DNA of 64,000 bases from NCBI GenBank assembly GCA_024274785.1, contig JAJSAM010000024.1:27880-91879 (forward strand), written 5' to 3'. Source of the DNA: Planctomycetota bacterium. GTDB taxonomy: Bacteria; Planctomycetota; JAJSAM01. Below are positions 3,990 through 55,995 of this stretch, piece by piece. The position numbers were made by a program, and so were the translations under genes. The notes under the pieces are model-generated. The model saw nothing but the letters and a program-made list of their open reading frames with translations. It ran no database searches and was not told where the DNA came from. How positions within the stretch are numbered: position 1 is the stretch's first letter; every line of letters begins with the position of its first letter.

Positions 3990-4090
3990 AAACCGGGGAG
4001 CCGACAAAGGAACGGCCCGTCGCTGCCGATAAAGAACTAACATGCGGCCTGGCGTGAGCCGATGTCTGATCCGAGAGTAGCGAGAGTAGG

Positions 4091-4119
4091 TTGACCCCTC
4101 AAGGTGGGGGGGATAGCAT
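4091..4119 (+). promoter_or_regulatory. Sigma70-type promoter candidate (TTGACC-N17-TAGCAT) for the 4157 operon
   Basis: ttgacc at 4091-4096, a 17-nt spacer containing a G7 run, and tagcat at 4114-4119, about 38 nt upstream of the ATG at 4157. The same architecture recurs at 13923 and 25934. Confidence 0.4.
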
Positions 4120-4156
4120 TCTGCGGGCTTATCCGGGGCCTTTGAGGGTTTGCGAC

Positions 4157-5710
4157 ATGGCGGATTTCGGACGGCGGGCTCCTCTTGTCCTCGTCACCGT
4201 TCTGTTCATGGCCCTCCTCTCCGCCCGCCCCGTCTTTTCCGCCGGTCCGAAAGGGAAGGATCTCGAGCGGAACCTCCGGACGAAGATCAAGCTCGTCTTC
4301 CTGTTCGAGAAGGACCTGCCCGACCTGGCGAAGCGGGGACAGGGGATCTCCCAGCTCGAGAACGAGATCCGCGGCGCCCTGGAGGCCGAGCCGGAAGCGT
4401 CCGGGATCCTCGACCTTTTCCACGACCTGCAACTCGCGTGGGCGAAACTCGAGCTGTCGCGGGGCGATGTCGATCAGGCGATCCTGCACTTCGAGGAGAT
4501 CATCCGGAGCGGTCCATCCTCCCGTGGCTATCAGGAAGCGGCGCTGACCACCGCTGATCTCCACGTGTCCCGGGGCGCGGCCTTCGAGGATGCCGGAGAC
4601 GACGGGCAGGCGCTGCTGAAGTATGGCCGGGCGGAGGAACTCTACCGGGCGGCCGGGCGGGAAGATCGCGCCCTGGAGATCGGGCGGAAGAGCGCCACCA
4701 TCGAGGCCAAGGAAGGGCTCAAGGCCTACCGCGTCAAGGACTACGACCTGGCCTTCGGGATCCTCTCGAAACTGGCGGCGCGCAAGCGGCCCGGGTTCGC
4801 CGGCAGCGAGGGCGACCAGGCCCTGGCCTGGATGGTCGAGCAGACCGGTGTGTTGACCGTGACGACCCTGGCCGTGCCGGCGCAGGTGCCCGGCCAGGAC
4901 GTCACCGGACTCGAGATCGCCCTGGAGCGCACGGGCCGGGGGGCGGAGACCAGGCGCCCGTTCGCGGCGAAGTTCCGCTGGGAGGTCGGTGAGTACCGCC
5001 TCGGGCTGTTGGGCCGGGATGGGAAGATGGTCCTCTCGGTCCCCGTCAAGCTGACCCGGGCGGGCGGGACCGCCTCGATCCCCTCGAAGCTCCCCGACGG
5101 CATGGCCTTCATACCGGCGGGGGGCAAGGTCTCGCGCCCCTTCTTCATCGACAAGACCGAGGTGACGGTGCAGGCGTTCACGAAGGTGTTTCCGTCCCAC
5201 CGCTGCCGGTCTTCACGGGCGAATTTTACCGCCTACGGAGTCACCTTCGCCGAGGCGAAGAGCTACGCCTCGAAGGTCGGTAAGAAACTGCCCAGCGAGC
5301 AGCAGTGGCTGCGCGCGGCATTTGGCGACAAGAACGAGAAGTACCCCTGGGGCAACACCGACGCCGGATCGATCAATCGACACTGCAACGTCGGGACTCG
5401 CGGACCGACCGCGGTGGGCAGCTTTCCGTCGGGGCGCAACGATTTCGGCCTCGACGACATGGCCGGGAACGTCTGGGAGTGGCTCGCGGACGAGTACGCC
5501 ATCGGTGGAGGGTTCGGCAGGAGCCGGCTGGCGACAAACCGGGCTCCGGCGGGCTGGACGCACCCCGTGGATTATCTGAGGCACAAGAAGCCAAGCAGCC
5601 GTCTTTACGATACCTTCGAGGATCTGGTCCGGCAGCAGAAGTACGACAAATACCGCGTCACTGACGAGAAGTTGGAAGAGGTGGGTTTCCGATGCGTACT
5701 CGAATTCTGA
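4157..5710 (+). CDS. Secreted TPR-like protein with a C-terminal FGE-sulfatase (SUMF1-like) domain, probably non-catalytic
   Basis: Signal peptide MADFGRRAPLVLVTVLFMALLSARPVFSA. The C-terminal YPWGN...DMAGNVWEWLADEY...GFRC matches the FGE fold, but the CxxxxC catalytic cysteine pair is not evident. Confidence 0.7.
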   Translation: MADFGRRAPLVLVTVLFMALLSARPVFSAGPKGKDLERNLRTKIKLVFLFEKDLPDLAKRGQGISQLENEIRGALEAEPEASGILDLFHDLQLAWAKLELSRGDVDQAILHFEEIIRSGPSSRGYQEAALTTADLHVSRGAAFEDAGDDGQALLKYGRAEELYRAAGREDRALEIGRKSATIEAKEGLKAYRVKDYDLAFGILSKLAARKRPGFAGSEGDQALAWMVEQTGVLTVTTLAVPAQVPGQDVTGLEIALERTGRGAETRRPFAAKFRWEVGEYRLGLLGRDGKMVLSVPVKLTRAGGTASIPSKLPDGMAFIPAGGKVSRPFFIDKTEVTVQAFTKVFPSHRCRSSRANFTAYGVTFAEAKSYASKVGKKLPSEQQWLRAAFGDKNEKYPWGNTDAGSINRHCNVGTRGPTAVGSFPSGRNDFGLDDMAGNVWEWLADEYAIGGGFGRSRLATNRAPAGWTHPVDYLRHKKPSSRLYDTFEDLVRQQKYDKYRVTDEKLEEVGFRCVLEF

Positions 5711-29893: not shown

Positions 29894-31465
29894 ATGAAGC
29901 CCATGCGGGCGTGGATGGGAGGGTTTCACGGCTCCCGCTCCCTGCGGCAGGCACGGGTCAGCACGACGACCCCGGCGGTCCCCCGGAGCGAGCGCGAACT
30001 CCCGGCTTTCCGCCACCCGCGGACACTCCTGGCGATGGGGATCTGCCTGACGTTGGCGACCGCCGTTTTCCTCCTCGACTGGGCGGAACTCGACGACCGC
30101 CGTCGCGTGGCCGGCGCGCTCCTTCTCGCTGGGATCCTGAACGCCATGTTCGCCATGTACCTGATCGGATTTCGGCGCCAGGTCCTCCGGCGTCGCTCCC
30201 GACTGTCCCTGGTGATGCTCCTGGCGCTGATCGTCCTCGGTTGCGCGGCGCTGGCGGCTTCTCCCCAGGGCGTGTGGCCCTCGTACCTGATCCCGCTGAC
30301 CGCCGCGACGATCGTGCTCGCGGTCGTGTTCGACCGTCGGTTCGCGCTGGAGGCGTCCGGGTTGCTTCTCCTCTACATCGCGGTCATCCTGCTCTCCCGC
30401 GGCGAGGTCGGTGGCCGGGAGATCGTGCGAACCGTAAGCGTCCTCGCCGCCGGTGTGCTCACCGCCGTGCTGACGACCGGTCGGATCCGGACGCGAAGCC
30501 GCATCATTCAGATCGGGGCGCTGATCGGCGTGGTGCACTTCATGACGATCGCGGCATTCTTCCTCCTCTGGACCGATTCCCGGCCGGGGGGAAGCATGGT
30601 CCTTCTCGAGCAGCTTCTGTTCTGGCTCGGACATGGGGTCATGGTGGGCTTCGTGGTCTCCGGATCGCTGCCGCTGCTCGAATACCTGTTCGGGATCTCT
30701 ACCGACATCAGCCTGCTCGAGCTCTCGAACATCGCGCAGCAGACGGTGCTCCGGCGGCTGCTCCTGGCCGCACCCGGGACCTACAACCACTCCTTCATCG
30801 TGGGGATGCTCTCGGAGGAGGCCGCCGAGGCCATCGGGGCAAATCCCCTGCTCGCCCGGGTGGGCGGGTACTACCACGATATCGGCAAGATGATGAAACC
30901 GGAGTACTTCGGAGAGAACGAGGTGGTGCCCGGAGCGCATCACAAGCCTCTGTCGCCGACCATGTCCACCCTGATCATCAAGTCCCACGTGAAAGACGGC
31001 AGCGAATTGGCCCGGCACTACGATCTGCCCCGGCCGATCATCGACATCGTCGAACAACACCACGGCACGACCATGGTGGAGTTCTTCTATCACAAGGCGC
31101 TGAAGCGGGCCGGCGAGGGGGAGCGGGTCGAGGAGTCGACGTTTCGCTACGAGGGACCGAAGCCACGAAGCCGGGAGGCGGGGATTGTCATGCTGGCGGA
31201 CTCCGTCGAGGCGGCGACGCGGTCACTTTCGGATCCGACCTCGGCGAGGATCGAGTCCACCATTCGGAATATCTCCACCCGCAAACTCTCCGATGGGCAG
31301 CTCGACGAATGTGGTCTCAGCCTGCGGGACGTTCGCAGGATCGAGGACTCCTTCATCCGCGTGCTGGCCGGGATCTTCCACAAGCGGCCCCGGTATCCTG
31401 AAATCGTCACGACCAAGCGAGGCCTCCCCGCGCCGGCGACGTTCGGCGGATCCGGTGGGTCGTGA
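29894..31465 (+). CDS. 7TM-receptor with intracellular HD phosphohydrolase domain (YqfF/7TMR-HD family)
   Basis: Seven N-terminal TM helices. HD motifs (HSFIVGML, YYHDIGKM, EQHHGTT). The conserved gene order is phoH / 7TM-HD / ybeY. Confidence 0.8.
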   Translation: MKPMRAWMGGFHGSRSLRQARVSTTTPAVPRSERELPAFRHPRTLLAMGICLTLATAVFLLDWAELDDRRRVAGALLLAGILNAMFAMYLIGFRRQVLRRRSRLSLVMLLALIVLGCAALAASPQGVWPSYLIPLTAATIVLAVVFDRRFALEASGLLLLYIAVILLSRGEVGGREIVRTVSVLAAGVLTAVLTTGRIRTRSRIIQIGALIGVVHFMTIAAFFLLWTDSRPGGSMVLLEQLLFWLGHGVMVGFVVSGSLPLLEYLFGISTDISLLELSNIAQQTVLRRLLLAAPGTYNHSFIVGMLSEEAAEAIGANPLLARVGGYYHDIGKMMKPEYFGENEVVPGAHHKPLSPTMSTLIIKSHVKDGSELARHYDLPRPIIDIVEQHHGTTMVEFFYHKALKRAGEGERVEESTFRYEGPKPRSREAGIVMLADSVEAATRSLSDPTSARIESTIRNISTRKLSDGQLDECGLSLRDVRRIEDSFIRVLAGIFHKRPRYPEIVTTKRGLPAPATFGGSGGS

Positions 31466-31908
31466 GGGTTGTGCTGACCAATGTGCAGGATGCCCTTCCG
31501 ATCGATGAGGACCGCCTGCTCGGTGAGATCGAGTCCCTCGCCCGCGGTGCCGGGTTCTCCGGAGAACTGTCGGTCGCCCTGGTGACCGACGCCGCGATTC
31601 ACGATCTCAATCGAGACTACCTGGGGCACGACTGCGCAACGGACGTCCTCGCCTTTCCGCTCGGTGAGGAGGGTGAGGAGGAAGGCGAGGTCGTGGTCTC
31701 GGTGGAGCGGGCGATCACCGAGGCGGGGGAGCGGGGCGTTCTGGCGGAAGCCGAGCTGATCTTCTACATCGCCCACGGCATCCTGCACCTCACCGGCTAC
31801 GACGATCACGAGCCCGAAGCCGCTCGCCGGATGCACGCCGTTGCGCTCAGGCTCCTGCGGGGCCTCGGTTACCGGAACAGTATCGCCGCGCGGCAAAGGG
31901 GAGAGTAA
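31462..31908 (+). CDS. ybeY: Endoribonuclease YbeY (rRNA maturation factor)
   Basis: GTG start overlapping the upstream stop. HGILHLTGYDDH zinc-binding motif. About 148 aa. Confidence 0.88.
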   Translation: MRVVLTNVQDALPIDEDRLLGEIESLARGAGFSGELSVALVTDAAIHDLNRDYLGHDCATDVLAFPLGEEGEEEGEVVVSVERAITEAGERGVLAEAELIFYIAHGILHLTGYDDHEPEAARRMHAVALRLLRGLGYRNSIAARQRGE

Positions 31909-32150
31909 ACCGCGGGCCGGGTGGCTGAGCGGAAATGGACCTCGGGGGCTGCGAGCTTCATCCGCCGGATCACGGGGAGCCCTTCCGGAGTTCCCTCGGA
32001 TCATGCCCCGGGCCCGAGTTGCGCTACCCGAACAGCGCCCCCGTCTGCTCCGAGAAATCGCCGAGCAGGTCGATCAGGGGGGGGGCGACGGGGGCGGCGA
32101 TCCGGCCTCTCCCGGCCGGGCGAAGCTTGTTTTTCCCGGTCGGTTTCAGG

Positions 32151-33011
32151 TTAATCGTGACGGGCATGGTGTGAGCCTCCACTCTGACGCCAGCGCGTTT
32201 CCGCGAGCCGGCGGTTCTCGGGTGTACTTACGTCGAACCAGATCCCCTGGAAGAAGAACGCGCCCAGTTCGCCCTGCGCCGCGAGCCGGGGGAAGACATC
32301 GGTCTCGAGCCGGGAAGGCTTGTCCTGGTCGATGAGGTCGAGGACCTCGGGCTCCAGGAGGTAAACACCGGTATTCACGATGCTGATGCCGCCGCTGCGG
32401 GAGCGATGGATGAACTCGAGGATCCGATTGCCCTCCAGCACCACCTTTCCGTAGTTTTTCTCCACCTGGCGCGGCTTGACCGCGATGGTGGCCAGGGTGT
32501 TTTCACCGCGGTGGAACCGGATGAAGCCGCTGATGTCGATGTCCGTCAGCACATCGGCGTTAACGGTCAGGAAGGGGCCGGATTCGAGGTGCTTCCGGGC
32601 TCGCCGGACCGCGCCGGCCGTACCCAGCGGGCGGGTCTCCATGACGTATTCGATTTCGACGCCCAGGTGGTGGCCGTCTCCGAGGTGTCCCCTGACCGCA
32701 TCTCCGCGCTTGCCCGCCAGGACGACGAAGCGCCTGATTCCATGGCTGGCGAGGTGCTCCACGGTCCGGGAGATGAGCGGCTTGCCGCCGATGGGAACGA
32801 GGCAGGGGATGTCGCCGCGCCGGGCCGGGCCGCCAGCGAGCAGGACCGCGGTCTCCACCTCCGGAACGATGGACTGCCGCAGGAGCATTTCGATGGCGTG
32901 GGAGCGATTGCGTACGGTCTGCTTGTCGATGAGCCGGTCGACCTTTGCAAGCAGATCGTGGGAAAGGGTGATCGTCAGCCGCGCCTTGCTCCTCATGGCT
33001 GCCCGGGCCAT
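32151..33011 (-). CDS. Ribbon-helix-helix (CopG-like) DNA-binding domain fused to a sugar-1-phosphate nucleotidyltransferase domain
   Basis: N-terminal RLTITLSHDLLAKVDRLIDKQTVRNRSHAIEMLLRQ is RHH. This is followed by the NTP_transferase fold (VLLAGGPARRGD..., GTAGAVR, GIWFDVSTPE). The G-loop is divergent (GGPARR instead of GGxGTRL). Confidence 0.7.
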   Translation of the reverse strand: MARAAMRSKARLTITLSHDLLAKVDRLIDKQTVRNRSHAIEMLLRQSIVPEVETAVLLAGGPARRGDIPCLVPIGGKPLISRTVEHLASHGIRRFVVLAGKRGDAVRGHLGDGHHLGVEIEYVMETRPLGTAGAVRRARKHLESGPFLTVNADVLTDIDISGFIRFHRGENTLATIAVKPRQVEKNYGKVVLEGNRILEFIHRSRSGGISIVNTGVYLLEPEVLDLIDQDKPSRLETDVFPRLAAQGELGAFFFQGIWFDVSTPENRRLAETRWRQSGGSHHARHD

Positions 33012-33012
33012 G

Positions 33013-33031
33013 TGTCATACTTTGTCATACT
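33013..33031 (-). promoter_or_regulatory. Direct repeat TGTCATACT-n1-TGTCATACT abutting the RHH gene start codon (candidate operator)
   Basis: tgtcatact at 33013-33021 and again at 33023-33031 (a 10-nt period), 1-2 nt upstream of the ATG at 33011. Confidence 0.4.
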
Positions 33032-33188
33032 CAAATGATCGTCCGTACCAGTTGTCCTGTCCAGCGGATTTCCATGATGGGGGGCAATTCTTCGGTCACG
33101 GGAGACGGGGGACGGTGGCTTTGCATTCGGCTCGCATTCCCGCTCGCAATACGGTCGGGGGTCGGATATCGTCGAGCGGGGAGGGTGC

Positions 33189-35072
33189 ATGGTTGACCGG
33201 ATCGAGAAGCTGGAGCGGCAAGTGGCCGAATTGGCTTCCGAAGTCGCGGCGCTCAAGGCCAACCTCTGCTCCGGATCCCGGGTGGCGGATCCGAAGGAAA
33301 GGGCCGGCGCGGTATGCAATGCGGCCGAACCGGCCGGTGGCTCTTCTGAAGGCTGGGCCATCAGCAGAGACTTCGAGCGCCTGGTTGCCGAGCATGGCCT
33401 GGTCATCCTGGCCGGTATCGCCAGCCTCGTCCTCGCGGTGGCGGTGGTCCTGCGCCAGGCGACGATCAACTCGGACCTGCCGGTCGCATTCGGAGCGGCG
33501 CTCGGCCTGGCCTACTGCACTCTCCTGATGGCGATCTCCTTCCTTCGCTACCGCAAGGGGGCGGGTCTGCAGGGAGACGTCTTCCTCGTTCTGGCCACCG
33601 CCATCCTGAACGCGATCCTGGTCGAGGTCACCCTTCGGCCGGATGGATTCACCCGAACGGTCTCCTATGCGGTGCTGGCGACGGCCCTGGTGATCCTGGC
33701 GGTCATCTCGCTGCGGAACGGCCGCGCGGTGCCGTTTACCGCCTGCGTGCTGGCCGCACCCATCGCCGGCGCCGCGATCGGTGGGCGGCCTTTTCAGCAC
33801 CCGCTCTTCGCGACGATCCTCGGGATGTCTCTGCTCCTCTCGTGGGTGGGAAGCATTCTCCGGGGGTTCGGGCGAATCCGGTGGTTCACCGGGTTCCTGA
33901 CCCTCTCGTATGTGTTCACGCTCGGTGCACTGGCAAAAACCGCGCTGCGCCCGGACATGGCCCAGCACGCGCTGGCTCGCCCGGTGCCGGCGCTTTCGGT
34001 GCTGGCCGGCCTTCTCCTTATTCTGCTTCTGCCGGCGGTCGTCGCCTCTCTCAAGCGCCACCGCAGTCTCGATGCATTCGAGGTGACGACGGCGGTTGCG
34101 GGGCCGCTCGCGGTGTTGGTCGCGGGGACCGGGATCCTCCTGGCACTGCCTTCCGGGGCGCGCGTGGCCGGCCTCGCCTGCCTCGGCCTCGGAATACTCT
34201 TTTATGTGACCGCTGCCATCGGCTTTATCCGTCACGGCGCGGAGAGCCGCAGCTTCTACGTTCTCAGCATCAACGCCCTCGTCTACGTCCTCGCGGGCTT
34301 CGCGTTTCTGACGGGCGGGGGGGTGGCGTACGGCGTCACGGTGCAGGGAGCGGCCCTGGTGCTCTCGATCTTCGCGCTGAAACTGGGGAAACGGACGCTG
34401 TCCGTGCAGGCCTTCCTGCTCACCTGCCTGGCGTTTCTGGTGAATGCGAAGACCGGCATCGACCTGTCCGCCCCGGGTGACGGTCTCGCCACACGCATCG
34501 GACCCGCGGTGTGGCTGATCATTTCCGGGGTGATGGCCACTTTCGTCTTCGTTTTCCAGCGTGCCTTCCGCTGGGACAGCCAGAGATTCAGCTTGAAGCG
34601 GCTGAACGCTCACGCCACCGCCCTGGTGGTCGCTCTCGCCATCGGCCAGATCCAACTGCTCTCGGGGTTGCTCCCCCTGATCTACGATCTGGTGATCGGG
34701 ATCGTCGGCACCGCTGATCCCGAGACGCTGTCGGACGTGTGGCACACGATCTACACCCTGCTTCTGGTCTCCGGTTCGCTCATGACGCTGGGGCTCGCGG
34801 TGCGGTTGCGCCTCGGTGGGGCGACGGTACTGGCCGCCGTGGTCATGGTTGCCGCGGGGCTCAAGCTCTTCCTGCACGACGCCATGACCGTGCACTGGAC
34901 GCTGCTGGCGTTCTCGGCCAGTGCATTCGGACTCTCCCTGATCGCCGCGTCGCTCCTCTACCGGAGATTCCGGGGGATCAGCGCTTCGCAGCGCCCGCGG
35001 CCGACGCCTTCTCTTCCCGGCCGAAGAACGGAAACGCCCGATCGAACTGCCGAAGCAGGAGGAAGGGGATGA
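33189..35072 (+). CDS. Polytopic membrane protein with an N-terminal coiled coil (DUF2339-like)
   Basis: ATG is preceded by GGGGAGGG. N-terminal coiled coil IEKLERQVAELASEVAALKANL, followed by at least 14 predicted TM helices. The 3' end overlaps the convergent nrfD-like gene by about 95 nt. Confidence 0.55.
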   Translation: MVDRIEKLERQVAELASEVAALKANLCSGSRVADPKERAGAVCNAAEPAGGSSEGWAISRDFERLVAEHGLVILAGIASLVLAVAVVLRQATINSDLPVAFGAALGLAYCTLLMAISFLRYRKGAGLQGDVFLVLATAILNAILVEVTLRPDGFTRTVSYAVLATALVILAVISLRNGRAVPFTACVLAAPIAGAAIGGRPFQHPLFATILGMSLLLSWVGSILRGFGRIRWFTGFLTLSYVFTLGALAKTALRPDMAQHALARPVPALSVLAGLLLILLLPAVVASLKRHRSLDAFEVTTAVAGPLAVLVAGTGILLALPSGARVAGLACLGLGILFYVTAAIGFIRHGAESRSFYVLSINALVYVLAGFAFLTGGGVAYGVTVQGAALVLSIFALKLGKRTLSVQAFLLTCLAFLVNAKTGIDLSAPGDGLATRIGPAVWLIISGVMATFVFVFQRAFRWDSQRFSLKRLNAHATALVVALAIGQIQLLSGLLPLIYDLVIGIVGTADPETLSDVWHTIYTLLLVSGSLMTLGLAVRLRLGGATVLAAVVMVAAGLKLFLHDAMTVHWTLLAFSASAFGLSLIAASLLYRRFRGISASQRPRPTPSLPGRRTETPDRTAEAGGRG

Positions 35073-36150
35073 TGATGATGATCCCGGCGACCAGGATCCC
35101 CTCCTTATCGAAGAGTCCCGGCAGATAGCTGGTGAACCCCCGGTAGCTCTTGGAGAGCAACTGCCCGCCGATGACGACGTTCCACCGCATCAACAGCACC
35201 TGGATCAGGAGCAGCGCGGCGGAGATGAACAGGAACGAGTTGGCCAGCCTTTGGGGGAGGCGCAGCAGGGTCCGGGCCATGAGCAACAGGAACGGGCCGA
35301 GAGAGCAGATGAAGAGCTGGAACACCACGTAGGAAACGAAGAGCTTTCCACCGATGAGTTCCTTCAGAACCGCCCATCGCTCCGTCTGCTCGTAGGCCAC
35401 CGAGAGGACTTCCATCAGTTCGAGGGAGACCGCTCCGATCATGAAGGCCCACAGGAGCCGGCCGAGGGCGTTCAGGGTGCGCTGGCTGACCGGAAGGCGC
35501 TGCCGCCAGGTCACAAACTGGTACAGGAACGTCAGCACCGCGATGCCGGAGACGATCGCCGAAAAGATGAAGATGATGAACATGAGCGGTGTGGACCACC
35601 ATGGGTTCGCCTTGATCGAGCCGAAGAGAAAGCCCACGTAGCCGTGCAGGATGAGCGCGACGGGAATGCCGACGCCGGCGAGCCCCCGCACCATCATCCG
35701 ATCGATGGCATCGGTCCGCTCGTTCCGGTCCGTGGATCCGAGGAGCGACAGCTTGAGCAGCTTCCTCTTGAGCCCGGCGGCCTCCCTCCACTTCTCGACC
35801 ATCATTCCGCGAAAGTGGAACCAGATCTCGAAGAACACGATCACCGCGTAGATCAGGTAGACAAATCCGAATCCGCTCATGGCCGACCTGAAATTCGGCG
35901 TGATCATGATGTTCATCGCCCGCTCCGGACGGCCGAGGTGGTTCAGGAGAGGCAGGGGAGCGAACAGCAGAAAGACGAATGCGGACACGAGAGAGAAGGT
36001 GGCAATCGGCTTGAGCGCCTGAATCCCGAAAAGGTGATAAAGCGAAGAGACGATGAACGCCCCGGCCACGAGACCGGTGATGTAGGGATAAAGGACGATC
36101 ATCACCGTCCAGGTGACGTGGACTTCATTTGGAAAGACGAAGCCCTCCAT
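34978..36150 (-). CDS. NrfD/PsrC-family polytopic membrane quinol-interacting subunit
   Basis: MEGFVFPNEVHVTWTVMIVLYPYITGLVAG is the typical NrfD N-terminus. About 8-10 TM helices. ATGA overlap with the upstream FeS gene. Confidence 0.8.
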   Translation of the reverse strand: MEGFVFPNEVHVTWTVMIVLYPYITGLVAGAFIVSSLYHLFGIQALKPIATFSLVSAFVFLLFAPLPLLNHLGRPERAMNIMITPNFRSAMSGFGFVYLIYAVIVFFEIWFHFRGMMVEKWREAAGLKRKLLKLSLLGSTDRNERTDAIDRMMVRGLAGVGIPVALILHGYVGFLFGSIKANPWWSTPLMFIIFIFSAIVSGIAVLTFLYQFVTWRQRLPVSQRTLNALGRLLWAFMIGAVSLELMEVLSVAYEQTERWAVLKELIGGKLFVSYVVFQLFICSLGPFLLLMARTLLRLPQRLANSFLFISAALLLIQVLLMRWNVVIGGQLLSKSYRGFTSYLPGLFDKEGILVAGIIIIIPFLLLRQFDRAFPFFGREEKASAAGAAKR

Positions 36151-36917
36151 CACTTCACCTCCAGGTCGAGGCCCAGGTAGTAGCACTTCGGATCGGTGCC
36201 CATTTCCGGTTTCAGCAGGCCGTAACGGCGTTGGTCGAGCACCCGCCGGAGCGGGCTGTCCGGGGCTCGCAGGTCACCGCAGATGCGGGCCTGCCTCGGA
36301 CAGGCGGTGGCGCAGGCGGTCGTCAGGTCCCGGTGGAGGCGGTGGTAGCAGAGGGTGCACTTGTCCGCGGTCCCGATGTCGTGGTCGATGTAGCGGCAGC
36401 CGTAAGGACACGCCTGCACGCAGTAGCCGCAGCCCACGCAGCGGCTGCGATCGATCAGGACCACACCGTCCGGCGAGTGGAACGAGGCTCCGACCGGGCA
36501 GACCTGGGTGCAGGCGGACGCGCGGCAGTGGTTACAGAGCTTGGGTACGAAGAAGCCCTTGGCAAGGCGCTGTTTCTCGCACTGATCCGTTTTGAAACTC
36601 TCGATGGCGCCCTGCGGCGAGTCGACGTGGACCTCGTGATCCTTGTCGATCTCGTAGCGCTCCACCCAGGTTCGATAGAAACTGTCGGGGACGTCGTTTT
36701 CCGCGGAACAGGCGCGCACGCAGGATCCGCAGCCGATGCAACGGGTGGTGTCCACGAGGAAGCCCCACTCGAGTTTCGAGAGATCCTGCATGCTCCTCAG
36801 TTCGGGCTTCTCCCCGGGGGCTCCGAAAGCGGTCAGGGTGCCCACGAAGGCCCCCGTGGCTCCTGCGAGGGCCAACTGGATGAACCGCCGTCGGTTCAGG
36901 TCGGTGTTGTCTCCCAT
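36150..36917 (-). CDS. 4Fe-4S ferredoxin-type iron-sulfur subunit (NrfC/PsrB/HybA-like) with a Tat signal
   Basis: ATG at 36917 after GGGGAGG. Twin-arginine motif NRRRFIQLALAGATG. Four Cys clusters (CIGCGSCVRAC, CNHCRASACTQVCP, CVGCGYCVQACP, CTLCYHR...ACATACP). Confidence 0.85.
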   Translation of the reverse strand: MGDNTDLNRRRFIQLALAGATGAFVGTLTAFGAPGEKPELRSMQDLSKLEWGFLVDTTRCIGCGSCVRACSAENDVPDSFYRTWVERYEIDKDHEVHVDSPQGAIESFKTDQCEKQRLAKGFFVPKLCNHCRASACTQVCPVGASFHSPDGVVLIDRSRCVGCGYCVQACPYGCRYIDHDIGTADKCTLCYHRLHRDLTTACATACPRQARICGDLRAPDSPLRRVLDQRRYGLLKPEMGTDPKCYYLGLDLEVK

Positions 36918-36919
36918 GT

Positions 36920-37885
36920 TCACCTCCCCAGGAGCTTCCTGGCGTGGACTTCCTTCAGGTGGCACTTCAGGCAGGCCCGCGGATCGGCCTCCAGTTCCAC
37001 GGGGTCGAGGTCGAGCAGTTCGGCAAACTCGTCGAGGTGGATTTTTGAGTCGATCGCCGGGACCTGCTCCGTGTCCTTGAAGCTCTTCCGCTCGTGGCAG
37101 AGCAGGCAGAAACGGCGATTTCCGTTCTTGAAGATCCTTCCCGCCACCTCGTTCTCGCGATGAAAGAAGTGGCAGGCCGTGCAGTCCATGAAGTTGTGCC
37201 GGCGGCCGGCGAAGTCGCCGACGATCTCCTGGTGACAGTCCGCGCAGGCGAAGATCACGGGGTGGTCGGGTGCTTCATGATGGCTCTTCTGAGGGCGTTT
37301 CTCGTGGCAGGTGACACATTCGTAGATCACCGGGTGCGTCCGGGCCTCCGCCACCCTCGTCAGGAGGAACACCGGTTCGTGCGGATCATGGCACTCGATG
37401 CACCGCGTTTTCGGGTCCGTCACCTTGAGGAATTCGTAGTGTGCGACGGGGTCTATCTGCGGGAAGTCGGCCGGGCGTGAGTTCAGGCGGCGATGGCAGA
37501 AGAGGCAGCCTTCGAGTGTGTACTCTTTCGGCATCAGGCGGGCGGGATCATCCTCCGCGGGCGGCCCCTCCCGATGAGCCCGCACATGCTCGGCGCCGGG
37601 GCCGTGGCAGTCCTCGCACTGCACATCGAAGTGGATGTCCTTCTGGTGAGTCTGGAGAATGCCGGCATGGCACTCTCCGCAGGTCTCCCGGCCCTGATGC
37701 AGGGGTTCCCGCGAGATGATGTCCTCGAGCACGGCCCGTTGATACTCACCGCCATCCCCGTATCCGTCAGGGCGCAAGACGGCCTGAATCACCAGTCCGA
37801 GCACCGTTGCAATTGCCAGGAGGATGACGACTCGAGTTACGTGGGCGTGGTCGTTGCGGTTGTTCCCGGCGGAAGATGCCCACAT
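36920..37885 (-). CDS. Membrane-anchored multiheme cytochrome c (nine CXXCH motifs)
   Basis: ATG at 37885 after AAGGAG; the GTG at 37906 is less likely. TM anchor VVILLAIATVLGLVIQAVL. CXXCH motifs: CGECH, CEDCH, CLFCH, CIECH, CVTCH, CADCH, CTACH, CLLCH, CLKCH. Confidence 0.85.
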   Translation of the reverse strand: MWASSAGNNRNDHAHVTRVVILLAIATVLGLVIQAVLRPDGYGDGGEYQRAVLEDIISREPLHQGRETCGECHAGILQTHQKDIHFDVQCEDCHGPGAEHVRAHREGPPAEDDPARLMPKEYTLEGCLFCHRRLNSRPADFPQIDPVAHYEFLKVTDPKTRCIECHDPHEPVFLLTRVAEARTHPVIYECVTCHEKRPQKSHHEAPDHPVIFACADCHQEIVGDFAGRRHNFMDCTACHFFHRENEVAGRIFKNGNRRFCLLCHERKSFKDTEQVPAIDSKIHLDEFAELLDLDPVELEADPRACLKCHLKEVHARKLLGR

Positions 37886-43389: not shown

Positions 43390-45891
43390 ATGATTCGAAC
43401 TCCAGCCCTGATGGCCTGCCTGGTGCTCACCGTGGTGGCCTGCGACGCCGGCGTCGCCCCGCCCGCGCCGCCGTCGCCGGCCGTCGCATTTTCGCCCGAC
43501 CTGATTCGTACGAAAGAGTGGGAGATCTATCACCAGTGGGCCGGTCGCATCGCCGAGGTCGTCGCCGAGGTCGTCGATGAAGACGGTCAACCGTACGCCG
43601 GGGCGACCGTCTCCGTGATCATCCTTCCCCGGATGGAGGTTCTTCCGCCTCTGGTGATCGCCGTTCAAGTCAGCGACGAGAAGGGCGAGGTCCGCTTCGA
43701 GGATGTCCCCGGGAATGCCTTCCTCCGGATGGAGGCGGATGGGTTCGCGGGTGGCATGTTGGACCTGCAGTTCGCGATGAATCCGGACTTCGGATCACCG
43801 AAGATGCCCTTGCGCCGGGGCTCAGAGGTTTCGGGGCGGGTTCTCCTTCCGGATGGGACACCGGCCCCCGGCGTTCGGGTGATCGGCATGAGTTCGGTTC
43901 GCGACTGGTACGAGCTGGCGACGGCCGATGAGGATGGGCGGTATCGGTTGTACCCGGTTCCCGCGGGACAGATCATGCTGATGGCCATCCCCGGTGGGCC
44001 GATCGGTCAGTTGCCGCCGTTCGATGTCCCCACGGGCCTTGACGTCACCAGAGACTTGTCGGTCCGTGCGCTCTCGCCCATTCACGGGCGCGTGCTCGAT
44101 GCGAACACGGGAAAGCCGGTGGCCGGTGCGATCGCGCGGTCCTTTGTCGATCGGGATGTGCTCGTGGTGGCCGATGATGAGGGACGGTTCACCCTCGAAA
44201 ACGTCTACGGGCGGATGATCGACATCCTCGCTCCGGGCTATGCGGAACGCTCCGTTCCCGTCGATGCGATGCGGGCGGATGCCATCGATGTCGAGGTGAA
44301 GCTCGCCCCCGGTGTAACGGCCCGGGGGGTGGTGGTCGACGAAGAGGGCGCTCCGCGCGCCGGCGCGAGGGTCTTCGCGGTGGTGGATGTCGAGGGCGTC
44401 GGTCGCTATGTGCTTGGGCCGTTGACGGATGAGCTGGGACGGTTTGTCTGGAGTTGGATCGAACCCGCCCGGACCGGCGGGAAGATCGTCTTCGGCGCGG
44501 AGGGGGCGGGTCTGCTGCCGGTAGTCGGCTCGATCCATCCGCTCGTGCCGGGGATTTCGATCGACGACATTGTCCTGACCCTTCCGGAACCGTCCCGGCT
44601 TCGCTTTCGGTTGATCGATGAGCAGGGGGAACCCCTCGTCGATGCCGTCTGCCTGGCTGAGCCCGATCTGGAGGCCGTGCCGTCCGGGGTCAGGCCGATG
44701 GTCAACACCGGGGGGACGGCGGTCACCGCTGAAGATGGGAGCGCGCTGATGGCGGGGCTCCGGCGGGGCCCCCACTTCCTGAGCATCCTGCTCGGTCATC
44801 GCATCCCCTTCTCCACCGGGATCAATGTCGGCCCGGGGATGAACGACCTCGGCGACATCACGGTGCCGGACCTCCTGGCGATCGCGGGGCAGGTGCTCAG
44901 CACCGGCGGCGAGTTGCCGGATATGGTCAAGGCTTTCCTGTCGATCCCCGGTGAGAGCTTCCAGGCGGAGGTTCGTATCGGCAAGGATGGGAAGTTCCGG
45001 ATTTCCGGGCTGGCGGATCGGCAGTACGTGCTGCAACTGGCGGCGTCGGACCACCGGACCGTGACGAAGCGGTATGCCGCCGGCACCGAAGACATCCAGG
45101 TCCGGTTGACCCTCCTCGGGAAGCTCTCCGTTACCCCGCTGCTCGAAGGAGACGACCAGCCCGAGGGGCGGATCGAGATGGTGAGGGTGGGCGGTGCGGA
45201 AGCGCCGGTGATGCGGTTCTTCAACCGCCCGGGAGAGGCTGTCATGGCCAATCGGATGACGCCTGGAGACTGGTTCGTCCGCGTGAAGGCCGGTGAGTAC
45301 TATGGAGCGGCGAAGGTCACCGTCATCGGGGGGAAGTCGGAATCCGTTCAGGTTCAGCTTCACCCCGGCGGTACGATCCACGGGTTCGTCAGGAAGCCCG
45401 ACGGCACGCCCGCAAAGCGAATTGGAGTGCAGTACGACGGCGGCGAGGCCTGGGGCGTACACGGTGTTCCCGTGGGCGACGACGGGCAGTATCGATTGGT
45501 GGGCGTCCCCGCCGGCGAGGTCGAGTTGTTGACCCACCCGCGAGGGTTCGTTCCGTTTCGCAAGACGATCGTGGTGATCAACGGAGAGGAAACCCGGCAG
45601 GACATCGAACTCGATGCCGGGGGACGGTTCGAATTGCGCGTCACTGATCCGGACGGAAAACCCCTCTCCGCCGTGAAGGTCGGCCTGGCCGATGACCAGG
45701 GTGTGCCGGCCCGCTACTGGATCAGTGGGCAGGATCGAGCCCGGACCGATGAGGACGGCGTGCTGACCCTGACGGGAGTTCCACCGGGCAGCTATCGATT
45801 GAGCCTGCACATCAAGGACCAGCTTTGGGAATCGAGACAGGTGGACATTCCGGCGGGGGAGAGCAAGCTGGTCATCGAAATCGATCGGTAG
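43390..45891 (+). CDS. Large lipoprotein with about 8 tandem CarboxypepD_reg-like beta-sandwich domains
   Basis: Signal/lipobox LMACLVLTVVAC. Recurring about 80-aa modules with G(R/F)V.D..G.P..GA.V signatures (e.g. VSGRVLLPDGTPAPGVRV, IHGRVLDANTGKPVAGA, IHGFVRKPDGTPAKRIGV). Confidence 0.6.
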   Translation: MIRTPALMACLVLTVVACDAGVAPPAPPSPAVAFSPDLIRTKEWEIYHQWAGRIAEVVAEVVDEDGQPYAGATVSVIILPRMEVLPPLVIAVQVSDEKGEVRFEDVPGNAFLRMEADGFAGGMLDLQFAMNPDFGSPKMPLRRGSEVSGRVLLPDGTPAPGVRVIGMSSVRDWYELATADEDGRYRLYPVPAGQIMLMAIPGGPIGQLPPFDVPTGLDVTRDLSVRALSPIHGRVLDANTGKPVAGAIARSFVDRDVLVVADDEGRFTLENVYGRMIDILAPGYAERSVPVDAMRADAIDVEVKLAPGVTARGVVVDEEGAPRAGARVFAVVDVEGVGRYVLGPLTDELGRFVWSWIEPARTGGKIVFGAEGAGLLPVVGSIHPLVPGISIDDIVLTLPEPSRLRFRLIDEQGEPLVDAVCLAEPDLEAVPSGVRPMVNTGGTAVTAEDGSALMAGLRRGPHFLSILLGHRIPFSTGINVGPGMNDLGDITVPDLLAIAGQVLSTGGELPDMVKAFLSIPGESFQAEVRIGKDGKFRISGLADRQYVLQLAASDHRTVTKRYAAGTEDIQVRLTLLGKLSVTPLLEGDDQPEGRIEMVRVGGAEAPVMRFFNRPGEAVMANRMTPGDWFVRVKAGEYYGAAKVTVIGGKSESVQVQLHPGGTIHGFVRKPDGTPAKRIGVQYDGGEAWGVHGVPVGDDGQYRLVGVPAGEVELLTHPRGFVPFRKTIVVINGEETRQDIELDAGGRFELRVTDPDGKPLSAVKVGLADDQGVPARYWISGQDRARTDEDGVLTLTGVPPGSYRLSLHIKDQLWESRQVDIPAGESKLVIEIDR

Positions 45892-54888: not shown

Positions 54889-55995
54889 TTGCGACTTCAG
54901 AGATACATCTTCGGCATCCTCCTCAAGAACTTCCTGCTGATCCTGGTGGTGGTCACGGGACTCTCGTTCCTGGGAGCCATGGGGCAGAACCTCGGCCGGT
55001 ACGCGGAGGTCAGCCTCGGACAGCTCCTCGGCAGATTCCCCTTTCTGCTGCCGGTGTCGCTCAGCATTTCCATGCCGTTGGCCATGCTGGTCTCGACCCT
55101 GATCACCTACGGACGGCTCTCGGCGGACAACGAGATCACCGCCATCCGGATGGGTGGGATCCATCCGTTTCACGCCATCTCCCCGGCCCTCGTCCTCGGT
55201 CTCCTGGTCACCTGTATCGCGCTGATCATGAGCGCCGGGATTGCCCCTTATGCCGCGCGGAGAGCCCGGGCGGTCACCGCCGACGATCTGACGAACTTCC
55301 TCGACAACCTGGAAGAGCAGCGGGTGACGAGGTTCTGGACGCGGAACGTCTGGATGAGCTGGCATGAGGTCGACGAGGATGGCTGGCTCAAGGGGTTCTT
55401 CTTCAAGGTCCTGCCCCTCGGCAAGGTGCCGGTGGTCGGCGAGGCGGAGCGGGCCCGCGTGACCCGGGATCCCGGGATGACACGGCTGACCTTCGAACTC
55501 GAAGACGCCACCATCATCCAGGGGGATGTCGAAAACCGGATCAGCACCGACCAGACCAGGCTCTCCTACGAGGTCGAGGAACTGTTCGACAAGGCCAATC
55601 GCTCGCACCGCCGCCCGCTGATTTCCAGCTTCGAGCTTCGCTACGAGATTCACCGGGACCAGGCGTTGAGAAGAGTGCTGGTGGGAACACGGGCCAACGT
55701 CTCCGATCTGGTGAAGCACAACGTGGAGTTCTGGGGGCGGCTCGCCCTGAGTTCTGCCTGTTTCGTGTTTGTGCTCGTGGGGGCGCCGCTCGGCATCCTG
55801 TTTCGGAAGGGATCCTTCGTCGGCGCCGCGTTCGTCGCCCTGGTCCTCGCCTTCGTCGTCTACTATCCGCTTCATGAAGTGGGGCAGGGTCTGGCATCGG
55901 AAGGTGTGGTGTCTCCCGCGGTCGGGCTGCTGGCTCCGGGCGCGCTGCTCTCTGCCCTCGGCGTATTCCTGCTCTACAAGGTCATGACGCGGTGA
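54889..55995 (+). CDS. lptF: LPS export ABC permease LptF (YjgP/YjgQ family)
   Basis: TTG start. N-terminal LRLQRYIFGILLK. Six TM helices with a large periplasmic beta-jellyroll between TM3 and TM4. Confidence 0.78.
   Translation: MRLQRYIFGILLKNFLLILVVVTGLSFLGAMGQNLGRYAEVSLGQLLGRFPFLLPVSLSISMPLAMLVSTLITYGRLSADNEITAIRMGGIHPFHAISPALVLGLLVTCIALIMSAGIAPYAARRARAVTADDLTNFLDNLEEQRVTRFWTRNVWMSWHEVDEDGWLKGFFFKVLPLGKVPVVGEAERARVTRDPGMTRLTFELEDATIIQGDVENRISTDQTRLSYEVEELFDKANRSHRRPLISSFELRYEIHRDQALRRVLVGTRANVSDLVKHNVEFWGRLALSSACFVFVLVGAPLGILFRKGSFVGAAFVALVLAFVVYYPLHEVGQGLASEGVVSPAVGLLAPGALLSALGVFLLYKVMTR

What the first reader, a model, noticed from the sequence alone, without database searches (positions are those of the whole stretch)
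33013..33031. Perfect 9-nt direct repeat (TGTCATACT x2, 10-nt register) abutting the start codon of the RHH fusion gene
RHH regulators bind tandem or inverted repeats spaced one helical turn apart. Here two identical 9-mers lie with a 1-nt spacer, 1-2 nt upstream of the ATG, in the only AT-richer stretch of the divergent 33012-33188 promoter region. This strongly suggests autoregulation, and possibly control of the divergent DUF2339-like membrane gene.
Basis: seen in the sequence. Interest (0 to 1): 0.5.

Follow-up and report, generated by a model that had tools for sequence, protein, structure and literature searches.

The report
Conserved operator of an RHH regulator
The two identical 9-base repeats are very probably the DNA docking site of the NikR-like DNA-binding head of the protein encoded next to them, which probably shuts off its own promoter. 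The same site-and-protein pair recurs in several bacterial phyla, in CPR bacteria and in DPANN archaea, where it also sits in front of gluconeogenesis genes.

Summary
The repeat exists exactly as described: TGTCATACT at 33013-33021 and 33023-33031. On the gene's strand it reads AGTATGACA-A-AGTATGACA. Within this window alone it is not statistically remarkable. The evidence comes from comparison. The core GTATGA-N4-GTATGA lies within 200 nt upstream of the orthologous RHH + NTP-transferase gene in 55 of 80 species loci, including 19 of 19 non-CPR bacteria. That is a 210-fold enrichment over the rest of those loci. In the closest relatives it is the only conserved block in the upstream region. 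In bacteria it sits just after or overlapping a TTGACA-17/18-(-10) promoter, a repressor position. GTATGA is also the E. coli NikR half-site, and the protein shares NikR's R-x-T-x-T DNA-reading strand. Autoregulation is therefore well supported, though not shown experimentally. Three points need correction. The conserved start codon is probably 15 nt further downstream. Nothing supports control of the divergent membrane gene. The "DUF2339" label is not significant. New findings: the enzyme-like domain here has lost the catalytic GxGTR...PK loop, so it is probably a sensor. An unannotated small gene with the tail LLGDFSEQTGAxFG is co-transcribed. In CPR and DPANN relatives the same operator precedes glpX or pgk.

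The parts
33023..33031 (-). Operator box 1 (promoter-proximal): AGTATGACA, with core GTATGA at 33030-33025
   Evidence: Sequence. The core is conserved upstream of orthologues in 55 of 80 loci.
33013..33021 (-). Operator box 2: AGTATGACA, with core GTATGA at 33020-33015, one helical turn (10 bp) from box 1
   Evidence: In the closest relatives this is the only conserved upstream block.
33035..33040 (-). Predicted -10 hexamer GATCAT. It ends 4 nt before the GTATGA core of box 1, so the predicted transcription start (about 33031-33028) lies inside box 1.
   Evidence: Consensus scan found 1 site against 0.0 in shuffles. The same layout occurs in 19 of 19 non-CPR orthologous loci. The transcription start site is inferred, not measured.
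33058..33063 (-). Predicted -35 hexamer TGGACA, 17-nt spacer
32994..32996 (-). Probable true start codon (ATG, M of MRSKARLTITL). The alternative in-frame ATG is at 33009-33011.
   Evidence: Alignment of 25 homologues and the 281-aa version of this protein held in NCBI (P0001)
32151..32996 (-). Gene for the RHH + NTP-transferase-like fusion protein (281 aa; 286 aa if started at 33011)
   Evidence: Pfam RHH_1 22.3 bits (cut-off 20.5) and NTP_transferase E = 9.7e-28. AlphaFold pLDDT 81; the top Foldseek hit is a GDP-mannose pyrophosphorylase.
32874..32981 (-). RHH DNA-binding domain (RLTITLSHDLLAKVDRLIDKQTVRNRSHAIEMLLRQ). The strand R-L-T-I-T aligns with E. coli NikR R3-V-T5-I-T7.
   Evidence: R-x-T-x-T is present in 78 of 81 family members.
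32217..32816 (-). NTP-transferase-like (sugar-1-phosphate nucleotidylyltransferase fold) domain lacking the N-terminal GxGTR...PK catalytic loop. Probably a ligand-sensing domain.
32024..32167 (-). Co-transcribed small gene (47 aa, identical to P0130) ending in LLGDFSEQTGALFG. It has its own Shine-Dalgarno (ribosome-binding) sequence, GGAGG at 32180-32176, and overlaps the upstream gene by 17 nt.
   Evidence: It follows the RHH-NTP gene in all 19 non-CPR loci.

Best explanation
The two 9-mers are the operator of the protein encoded immediately downstream.

Mechanism. That protein has a NikR-type ribbon-helix-helix (RHH) head whose antiparallel beta-strands (R-x-T-x-T) read the hexamer GTATGA in the major groove. 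Two RHH dimers are proposed to bind the two GTATGAYA boxes. The boxes lie 10 bp apart, on the same face of the helix. The complex would be a dimer of dimers, presumably held together by the C-terminal nucleotidyltransferase-like domains.

Effect. In this window the boxes start 4 nt after the predicted -10 hexamer and cover about +1 to +19 of the transcript. Occupancy should therefore block RNA polymerase and repress the two-gene operon (the regulator gene and a 47-aa small-protein gene). This is negative autoregulation.

Signal. The C-terminal domain keeps the sugar-nucleotide-binding fold but has lost the catalytic GxGTR...PK loop. It most likely acts as a sensor of a sugar-1-phosphate, NTP or NDP-sugar that tunes DNA binding.

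Shown and inferred. Conservation, position and homology are shown. Binding, the sign of regulation, stoichiometry and the ligand are inferred.
For: (1) Footprint. GTATGA-N4-GTATGA (at most 1 mismatch) lies within 200 nt upstream of the orthologous gene in 19 of 19 non-CPR bacterial, 25 of 44 CPR and 11 of 17 DPANN archaeal loci. That is 58 sites in 31.7 kb against 8 in 919 kb elsewhere (210-fold). Shuffled upstream regions give 0.14 sites.
(2) Closest relatives. In relatives at 65-69% protein identity the repeat block is the only conserved upstream stretch.
(3) Other sites. Six perfect sites lie outside the 200-nt upstream window; they precede glpX (L019, L020, L056, L074) or pgk (L047, L049), which are neighbours of the regulator gene.
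(4) Unbiased scan. At least 20 are next to RHH-NTP genes. Ten are upstream of glpX. Six are upstream of ParD-type RHH antitoxins that carry the same E-R-[LMV]-T-I-T strand.
(5) NikR match. GTATGA is the E. coli NikR half-site (PMC7055735 and PMC4486848). NikR is the best solved-structure match of this RHH domain, with R-x-T-x-T aligned. That strand is present in 78 of 81 family members.
(6) Position. In all non-CPR loci the motif starts 2 nt before to 10 nt after the end of a -10 hexamer that follows TTGACA at 17-18 nt. The window has the same layout.
(7) Not coding and not RNA. The distance from motif to start codon varies out of frame (9, 12, 18, 20, 22, 23, 24, 27 and 28 nt). In archaea the motif lies between two divergent TATA boxes, so it is not transcribed. 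There is no Rfam match and no RNA structure (z = +0.79).
Against: There is no experiment: no binding data, no mapped transcription start and no expression data. The promoter is a consensus match only.

The boxes are direct repeats with a 4-nt spacer, unlike NikR's inverted GTATGA-N16-TCATAC. The quaternary arrangement therefore cannot be copied from NikR.

Twenty-five of the 80 loci lack a nearby site. Many of these sit inside operons whose first gene carries the site, but not all are explained.

In DPANN archaea the site is upstream of both TATA boxes. That position is compatible with activation, so repression may not be universal.

The ligand is unknown. Loss of catalysis is inferred from loss of a motif, not measured.

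In the 64-kb window, and in 83 kb around four orthologues, no second site was found. The regulon in this organism may therefore be just the regulator's own operon.
Confidence: 0.8

Rival explanations
1. The repeat is a conserved binding site, but for a different DNA-binding protein (for example a global regulator) and not for the RHH domain encoded next to it.
For: No binding experiment exists. The motif also occurs upstream of glpX and pgk.
Against: The motif travels with the RHH-NTP gene across at least five bacterial phyla and DPANN archaea, which share no other obvious regulator. Its hexamer equals the half-site of NikR, the closest structurally characterised RHH, which has the same R-x-T-x-T strand. 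Unrelated ParD antitoxins with that strand carry the same tandem site.
Confidence: 0.07
2. The conserved sequence acts at the RNA level, as a 5'-UTR element controlling translation or stability of the mRNA.
For: In bacteria the boxes are predicted to lie in the first 20 nt or so of the transcript. The gene has no obvious Shine-Dalgarno sequence.
Against: In DPANN archaea the motif is inverted relative to the gene and lies between two divergent TATA boxes, so it is not transcribed. In some CPR loci it overlaps the -10 hexamer. There is no Rfam hit, and the folding energy is no better than for shuffled sequence (z = +0.79).
Confidence: 0.04
3. The repeat is coding sequence: an N-terminal extension or leader peptide (MTKYDT...), as some gene callers annotate it.
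For: P0003 is called with the N-terminus MTKYDT. Several Thermoanaerobaculia homologues are called from the ATG inside box 2, in frame.
Against: In the window the ATGs inside the boxes are out of frame with the gene; they open only the 11-codon ORF MTKYDTWPGQP*. The motif-to-gene distance is not a multiple of 3 across loci. The motif is conserved at all three codon positions and also on the opposite strand in archaea.
Confidence: 0.02
4. The repeat is a chance or slippage duplication in an AT-rich spacer with no function.
For: Within the window a 9-nt exact repeat at period 10 is expected about 0.5 times by chance.
Against: The 210-fold enrichment upstream of orthologues, presence in 19 of 19 non-CPR loci, and 0.14 sites expected in shuffled upstream regions.
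Confidence: 0.01
5. The operator additionally controls the divergent membrane-protein gene (33189-35072). This would be in addition to autoregulation, not instead of it.
For: The two genes share a 177-nt intergenic region. In DPANN archaea the same motif does serve a divergent gene pair (glpX operon and regulator).
Against: The boxes are about 158 nt from that gene's ATG. No + strand promoter-like site was found near them. No similar divergent neighbour is conserved in 19 non-CPR loci. The DUF2339 match is not significant.
Confidence: 0.08

Closest known systems
NikR (nickel-responsive RHH repressor, E. coli; PDB 1Q5V, 2HZV)
   Same: It is the best solved-structure match of the RHH domain, with the R-x-T-x-T strand aligned. 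The recognised hexamer GTATGA is identical. Both have an RHH head plus a C-terminal ligand-binding or oligomerisation domain, and both have a repressor site overlapping the promoter.
   Different: The C-terminal domain here has a sugar-nucleotidyltransferase fold, not the ACT-like nickel-binding domain. The boxes are direct repeats 10 bp apart, not inverted repeats separated by 16 bp. The effector is presumably a sugar phosphate or nucleotide, not a metal.
ParD-type RHH antitoxins of ParDE toxin-antitoxin loci (PF03693)
   Same: Six metagenomic ParD loci found here carry the same tandem GTATGATAAAGTATGATA site 4-45 nt upstream of a gene whose product starts ...E-R-[LMV]-T-I-T-[LM]... This is the classic autoregulated RHH operator layout.
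   Different: They are small antitoxins of about 95 aa with a ParE toxin partner (L163). They have no enzyme-like domain and no link to sugar metabolism.
MetJ, Arc, CopG and omega repressors (tandem-site RHH repressors)
   Same: From general knowledge: RHH dimers bind adjacent short boxes cooperatively as higher oligomers. The boxes may be direct (MetJ met-boxes, omega heptads) or inverted. The operators overlap promoters.
   Different: Box sequences and spacings differ (8-bp met-boxes, 7-bp heptads). Those proteins are single-domain or use small co-repressors.
PutA (RHH + proline catabolic enzyme), BirA and NadR (enzyme/repressor fusions)
   Same: A DNA-binding domain is fused to a metabolic enzyme fold, so that substrate or product status sets transcription. 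NadR and BirA are nucleotidyl-transferring enzymes (general knowledge).
   Different: The enzyme folds and pathways differ. In the window's clade the catalytic loop is lost, so it is probably a pure sensor. Archaeal members keep GGxGTRLxPLT...PK and may be truly bifunctional.
GMPPA, the catalytically inactive paralogue in the GMPPA/GMPPB GDP-mannose pyrophosphorylase complex (PDB 7D72)
   Same: Same fold; it appears among the sequence and structure hits. It is a precedent, from general knowledge, for a dead pyrophosphorylase domain acting as a product sensor.
   Different: GMPPA regulates an enzyme allosterically. It does not regulate transcription and has no DNA-binding domain.
TrmB/Tgr-type sugar-sensing regulators of archaeal gluconeogenesis
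   Same: A sugar-related regulator whose sites lie next to TATA/BRE elements of fructose-bisphosphatase and gluconeogenic genes (a functional analogy for the DPANN loci).
   Different: The DNA-binding fold is unrelated (winged helix against RHH), and so are the motif and the sensor domain.

Membership tests
RHH_1 / CopG-Arc-MetJ superfamily (DNA-binding domain) | Sequence match to the RHH profile above the curated threshold | tested here: met
   PF01402 scores 22.3 bits against a cut-off of 20.5, residues 11-46.
RHH_1 / CopG-Arc-MetJ superfamily (DNA-binding domain) | Beta-strand followed by two helices at the N-terminus | tested here: met
   AlphaFold gives an extended segment at residues 10-16, then helices 18-29 and 36-47. 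The strand is not assigned in a monomer model, as expected for an intersubunit sheet.
RHH_1 / CopG-Arc-MetJ superfamily (DNA-binding domain) | Binds repeated short boxes in its own promoter | not testable with these tools
   Only inferred from conservation and position. It needs EMSA or footprinting.
NikR | N-terminal RHH with an R-x-T-x-T reading strand | tested here: met
   RLTIT aligns with NikR RVTIT. Partial hits to the nikR models TIGR02793 and PRK04460 cover residues 8-50 only.
NikR | C-terminal ACT-like nickel-binding tetramerisation domain | tested here: not met
   The C-terminal 230 residues are NTP_transferase. The full-length nikR models score far below their cut-offs (28 against 175 bits).
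NikR | Operator consisting of two GTATGA half-sites as an inverted repeat about two turns apart (GTATGA-N16-TCATAC) | tested here: not met
   The hexamer is the same, but here the copies are direct repeats with a 4-nt spacer.
Sugar-1-phosphate nucleotidylyltransferase (PF00483) | Fold and profile match | tested here: met
   PF00483 E = 9.7e-28. Foldseek TM-score 0.70 to GDP-mannose pyrophosphorylase.
Sugar-1-phosphate nucleotidylyltransferase (PF00483) | N-terminal catalytic signature G-x-G-T-R-x(n)-P-K. The role of the Arg and Lys in catalysis is taken from general knowledge of RmlA, GlmU and GMPP. | tested here: not met
   The window has LAGGPARRGDIPC. The family alignment shows an 8-residue deletion and no conserved R or K in 20 of 20 non-CPR members. 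Alignments to solved structures begin after this motif. The archaeal member L079 keeps GGKGTRLRPLT..PK.
Sugar-1-phosphate nucleotidylyltransferase (PF00483) | Pyrophosphorylase activity | not testable with these tools
   Needs an enzyme assay.
Type II toxin-antitoxin module (RHH antitoxin + toxin) | A small RHH antitoxin gene followed by a recognisable toxin gene | tested here: not met
   The RHH protein has 281 aa with an enzyme fold. The downstream 47-aa ORF matches no Pfam or NCBIfam family.

The most novel reading that the evidence does not exclude
The repeat is the cis-element of a previously undescribed family of one-component regulators shared by bacteria and archaea. The family combines a NikR-type RHH head with an NDP-sugar pyrophosphorylase. 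It would sense the hexose-1-phosphate or nucleotide-sugar pool and control fructose-bisphosphatase and gluconeogenic operons (glpX, pgk, aldolase, PGM/PMM) in CPR bacteria and DPANN archaea. In free-living phyla such as this one, the enzyme would have decayed into a pure sensor that works together with a novel small protein carrying the invariant C-terminal tail LLGDFSEQTGAxFG.
Probability: 0.4. Interest if true: 0.75.

Novelty: new variant of a known kind. Interest (0 to 1): 0.6.

Why it matters
An RHH repressor sitting on tandem boxes in its own promoter is textbook. Four things here are not.

(i) The same operator-regulator pair is conserved from Planctomycetota, Chloroflexota, Acidobacteriota and Zixibacteria to CPR bacteria and DPANN archaea.

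(ii) The hexamer and the reading residues are identical to those of E. coli NikR and of some ParD antitoxins. This gives a transferable recognition rule: the R-x-T-x-T strand reads GTATGA.

(iii) The sensor is a sugar-nucleotidyltransferase fold. It looks catalytically intact in archaea and degenerate in this organism.

(iv) The sites link the regulator to fructose-bisphosphatase and gluconeogenesis genes in lineages where I know of almost no characterised transcription factors or regulons. My literature searches found no description of this fusion.

All of this is directly testable in vitro with one purified protein and a 40-bp DNA fragment.

Tried and rejected
- Significance of the repeat inside the window alone: not significant. 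I relied on comparative data instead.
- Additional operator copies in the 64-kb window: none. The best other match has 2 mismatches, at 55352-55367, and is probably chance.
- glpX, pgk, PGM, aldolase or FBPase genes in the window: none.
- Additional sites within 10 kb either side of four non-CPR orthologues: none.
- GTATGA boxes upstream of the FBP aldolase/phosphatase gene that follows the operon in Chloroflexota: none. That gene is probably read through from the regulator's promoter.
- Rfam search and RNA folding of the leader: nothing.
- Pfam and NCBIfam searches for the small downstream ORF: nothing.
- Literature searches for an RHH-nucleotidyltransferase fusion or a CPR gluconeogenesis regulator: nothing found. 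The library is incomplete, so prior description cannot be excluded.
- Organism identity via P0001: no name or record obtainable.
- A toxin-antitoxin reading of the two-gene module: rejected, because of the enzyme-fold fusion and the lack of any toxin family.

Full report
OBSERVATION

The + strand reads ...CATG TGTCATACT T TGTCATACT CAAATG... with the two 9-mers at 33013-33021 and 33023-33031. These are the only exact copies in the window. The gene of interest is on the minus strand, where the repeat reads AGTATGACA-A-AGTATGACA-C-ATG. The region 33000-33059 has GC 0.45 against 0.55-0.70 around it.

On its own the repeat is not significant. First-order Markov simulations of the window give 0.49 exact repeats of at least 9 nt at period 10, and 1 is observed.

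THE GENE

ORF 32151-33011 (minus strand) encodes an N-terminal ribbon-helix-helix domain. The Pfam RHH_1 match scores 22.3 bits against a cut-off of 20.5, and partial hits to nikR models cover residues 8-50. This is followed by an NTP_transferase (sugar-1-phosphate nucleotidylyltransferase) domain with E = 9.7e-28.

AlphaFold (pLDDT 81) gives an extended N-terminal segment, two helices (18-29 and 36-47) and then the Rossmann-like fold. The best Foldseek hits are GDP-mannose pyrophosphorylases with TM-score 0.70.

The identical protein held in NCBI (P0001) has 281 aa. Most homologues start at the position of the second ATG (32996), with the conserved N-terminus M-R-x-K-x-R-L-T-I-T-L. The repeat therefore ends 16 nt upstream of the probable start. 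It ends 1 nt upstream of an alternative ATG at 33011.

COMPARATIVE TEST

A profile of 25 homologues recovered relatives in 347 species genomes, and the best 80 loci were kept. They come from Planctomycetota, Chloroflexota, Acidobacteriota (Thermoanaerobaculia), Zixibacteria, many Patescibacteria (CPR) and DPANN archaea (Woesearchaeota, Nanoarchaeota). An exhaustive HMMER search with the first 99 residues finds 238 clusters at 50% identity, so the family is modest in size but widespread.

Printing the 90 nt upstream of each gene shows the same tandem element, GTATGAYAAAGTATGAYA, in most of them. Quantitatively:
- GTATGA-N4-GTATGA with at most 1 mismatch occurs 58 times in the 31.7 kb (both strands) that lie within 200 nt upstream.
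- It occurs 8 times in the remaining 919 kb, a 210-fold difference in density.
- Shuffled upstream regions give 0.14 sites.
- It is present in 19 of 19 non-CPR bacterial, 25 of 44 CPR and 11 of 17 archaeal loci.
- The consensus is aaaaGTATGAyAAAGTATGAYA.

In the closest relatives of the window protein (65-69% identity; L201-L203, L001) the repeat block is the only conserved part of the upstream region.

The distance from motif to start codon varies out of frame (9 to 28 nt), so the conservation is not due to coding.

POSITION

In every non-CPR bacterial locus a TTGACA-like -35 box is followed at 17-18 nt by a -10-like hexamer. The motif begins between 2 nt before and 10 nt after the end of that hexamer.

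The window fits this pattern: TGGACA (33063-33058), 17 nt, GATCAT (33040-33035), 4 nt, then the motif. The predicted transcription start falls inside box 1, and the boxes cover about +1 to +19. This is a repressor position.

In several CPR loci the -10 hexamer lies inside the operator.

In DPANN archaea the arrangement differs. The conserved gene order is [GAPDH - aldolase - GlpX], transcribed leftward, and [RHH-NTP - PGM/PMM], transcribed rightward. The motif lies between the two divergent TATA boxes, inverted relative to the regulator gene. It is therefore not transcribed there, which argues for a DNA-level function. Rfam finds nothing, and the leader has no significant RNA structure.

WHO BINDS IT

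GTATGA is the half-site of the E. coli NikR operator, GTATGA-N16-TCATAC (PMC7055735 and PMC4486848). NikR is the best match of this RHH domain among solved structures, with its strand R3-V-T5-I-T7 aligned to R-L-T-I-T. That these NikR residues contact the bases is taken from my own knowledge of the 2HZV structure paper. R-x-T-x-T is present in 78 of 81 family members.

Many are chance hits in AT-rich DNA. Among the rest:
- At least 20 are adjacent to RHH-NTP genes.
- Ten lie upstream of glpX.
- Six lie upstream of ParD-type RHH antitoxins whose strand is E-R-[LMV]-T-I-T. One of these (L163) is followed by a ParE-like toxin.

Three otherwise different RHH families with the same reading strand thus share the same hexamer. 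This ties the element to the RHH domain rather than to some other factor.

REGULON HINTS

The perfect sites outside the 200-nt upstream window in the 80 loci are not random. They precede glpX (L019, L020, L056, L074) or pgk (L047, L049).

Conserved neighbours of the regulator are listed below.

| Neighbour | Loci |
|---|---|
| GlpX fructose-bisphosphatase | 19 |
| PGM/PMM | 15 |
| Class II aldolase-like protein | 13 |
| PGK | 8 |
| iPGM | 5 |
| Archaeal GAPDH | 5 |
| PGI | 4 |
| DeoC/LacD-type aldolase | 4 |
| Class I FBPase | 3 |
| FBP aldolase/phosphatase (FBPase_3), Chloroflexota | L004, L052, L206, L207 |

Three non-homologous FBPase types are therefore linked to this regulator. None of these genes, and no second site, occurs in the window or within 10 kb of four non-CPR orthologues. 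For this organism, only control of the regulator's own operon is supported.

THE SENSOR DOMAIN

The canonical N-terminal signature of sugar nucleotidyltransferases is present in 15 of 17 archaeal members and 6 of 44 CPR members. It is replaced by a short variable segment, with an 8-residue deletion and no conserved Arg or Lys, in all 20 non-CPR members including the window (LAGGPARRGDIPC).

Alignments of the window protein to solved structures begin after this motif. The archaeal member L079 aligns from GGKGTRLRPLT..PK onward with GDP-mannose pyrophosphorylase at E = 1e-41. The nucleotide- and sugar-binding motifs (GTAGA, KP, E..D, G.W.D) remain invariant.

My inference is that archaeal members may be bifunctional enzyme-regulators, whereas the window protein is probably a ligand sensor only.

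THE OPERON PARTNER

A 47-aa ORF (32024-32167, minus strand; identical to P0130) overlaps the 3' end of the regulator gene by 17 nt and has its own GGAGG Shine-Dalgarno sequence. Its N-terminal part is variable. Its C-terminal tail, LLGDFSEQTG[AS]xFG, is essentially invariant in 105 unnamed homologues.

It follows the regulator gene in all 19 non-CPR loci, the window, L201 and L202, and in no CPR or archaeal locus. Gene callers also report it in L204-L206. It has no Pfam or NCBIfam match. Its role is unknown.

THE DIVERGENT GENE

The 627-aa membrane protein gene at 33189-35072 has only an insignificant DUF2339 match (E = 6.9). Its ATG is about 158 nt from the boxes, and no + strand promoter was found near them. 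No comparable divergent neighbour is conserved among non-CPR loci. Control of this gene is not supported.

VERDICT

The autoregulation hypothesis is strongly supported by comparative evidence, although no experiment exists.

The element belongs to a known kind, an RHH operator overlapping its promoter, but in a new variant. It combines NikR-type recognition used in direct-repeat geometry, fusion to a (pseudo)sugar-nucleotidyltransferase, conservation across bacteria and archaea, a link to gluconeogenic genes, and an unknown small-protein partner.

I found no description of this in the literature available to me.

Noticed in passing
window 32024-32167 (minus strand): An unannotated family of small proteins (47 aa here) with a variable N-terminal part and an invariant C-terminal tail, LLGDFSEQTG[AS]xFG. 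The gene is translationally coupled to the RHH-NTP gene (GGAGG at 32180-32176, 17-nt overlap). There are 105 homologues, all 'hypothetical'. The gene always follows the regulator gene in non-CPR bacteria and never does so in CPR or DPANN loci.
   Followed up: yes
L004 about 4050-4774, L052 4084-5235, L206 11330-12445, L207 11084-12235: In Chloroflexota the regulator-plus-small-ORF pair is followed on the same strand by an FBP aldolase/phosphatase gene (FBPase_3) with no GTATGA site of its own. With GlpX and class I FBPase in other lineages, three non-homologous FBPases are linked to this regulator.
   Followed up: partly
L101, L112, L119, L156, L163, L183 (metagenome contigs): ParD-type RHH antitoxin genes (L163 has a ParE-like toxin) carry the same tandem GTATGATAAAGTATGATA site, with three boxes in L112 and L156, upstream of a protein starting ...ER[LMV]TIT... 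This suggests a general recognition rule: the R-x-T-x-T strand reads GTATGA.
   Followed up: partly
L012, L013, L040 (Thermoanaerobaculia), upstream of the regulator gene: These homologues lack a Met or Val at the usual start. The ATG inside operator box 2 is in frame 8 codons upstream, and the -10 hexamer (TAAAGT or TAGAGT) overlaps box 1. The mRNA may be leaderless or nearly so, with the start codon inside the operator.
   Followed up: no
L050, L073, L001, L203, L206 (upstream regions): Variants of operator geometry. L050 has a direct pair plus an inverted third box (GTATGACActGTCATAC). L073 has a palindrome (GTATGATAgTATCATAC). L001 and L203 have two pairs of boxes, one of them inside the promoter spacer. 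L206 has three boxes.
   Followed up: no
L045, between the operator and the regulator start codon: A run of GGATTA hexamer tandem repeats (ggattaggattaggattaggattaggatta) lies between the operator and the gene in one Patescibacteria locus.
   Followed up: no
window 33160-33191 and 32994-33012: The divergent membrane-protein gene has a strong Shine-Dalgarno sequence (GGGGAGGGTGC-ATG). The regulator gene has none before either candidate ATG.
   Followed up: no
window 29894-31908 and 34978-36965: Flanking genes, none of them related to the operator. A 7TM-HD (7TMR-HD + HD domain) membrane protein (29894-31465) is followed by ybeY (31462-31908), which converges on the regulator operon; both are confirmed by Pfam. 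On the other side lie what look like an NrfD-type membrane subunit gene (34978-36186, minus strand) and a 4Fe-4S ferredoxin-type subunit gene (36150-36965, minus strand). These last two labels are judged by eye from the ORF translations and were not checked against Pfam.
   Followed up: no
window 43550-43576: A 15-nt exact direct repeat at period 12 (TCGCCGAGGTCGTCG) is the longest short-period repeat in the window. It was not examined.
   Followed up: no
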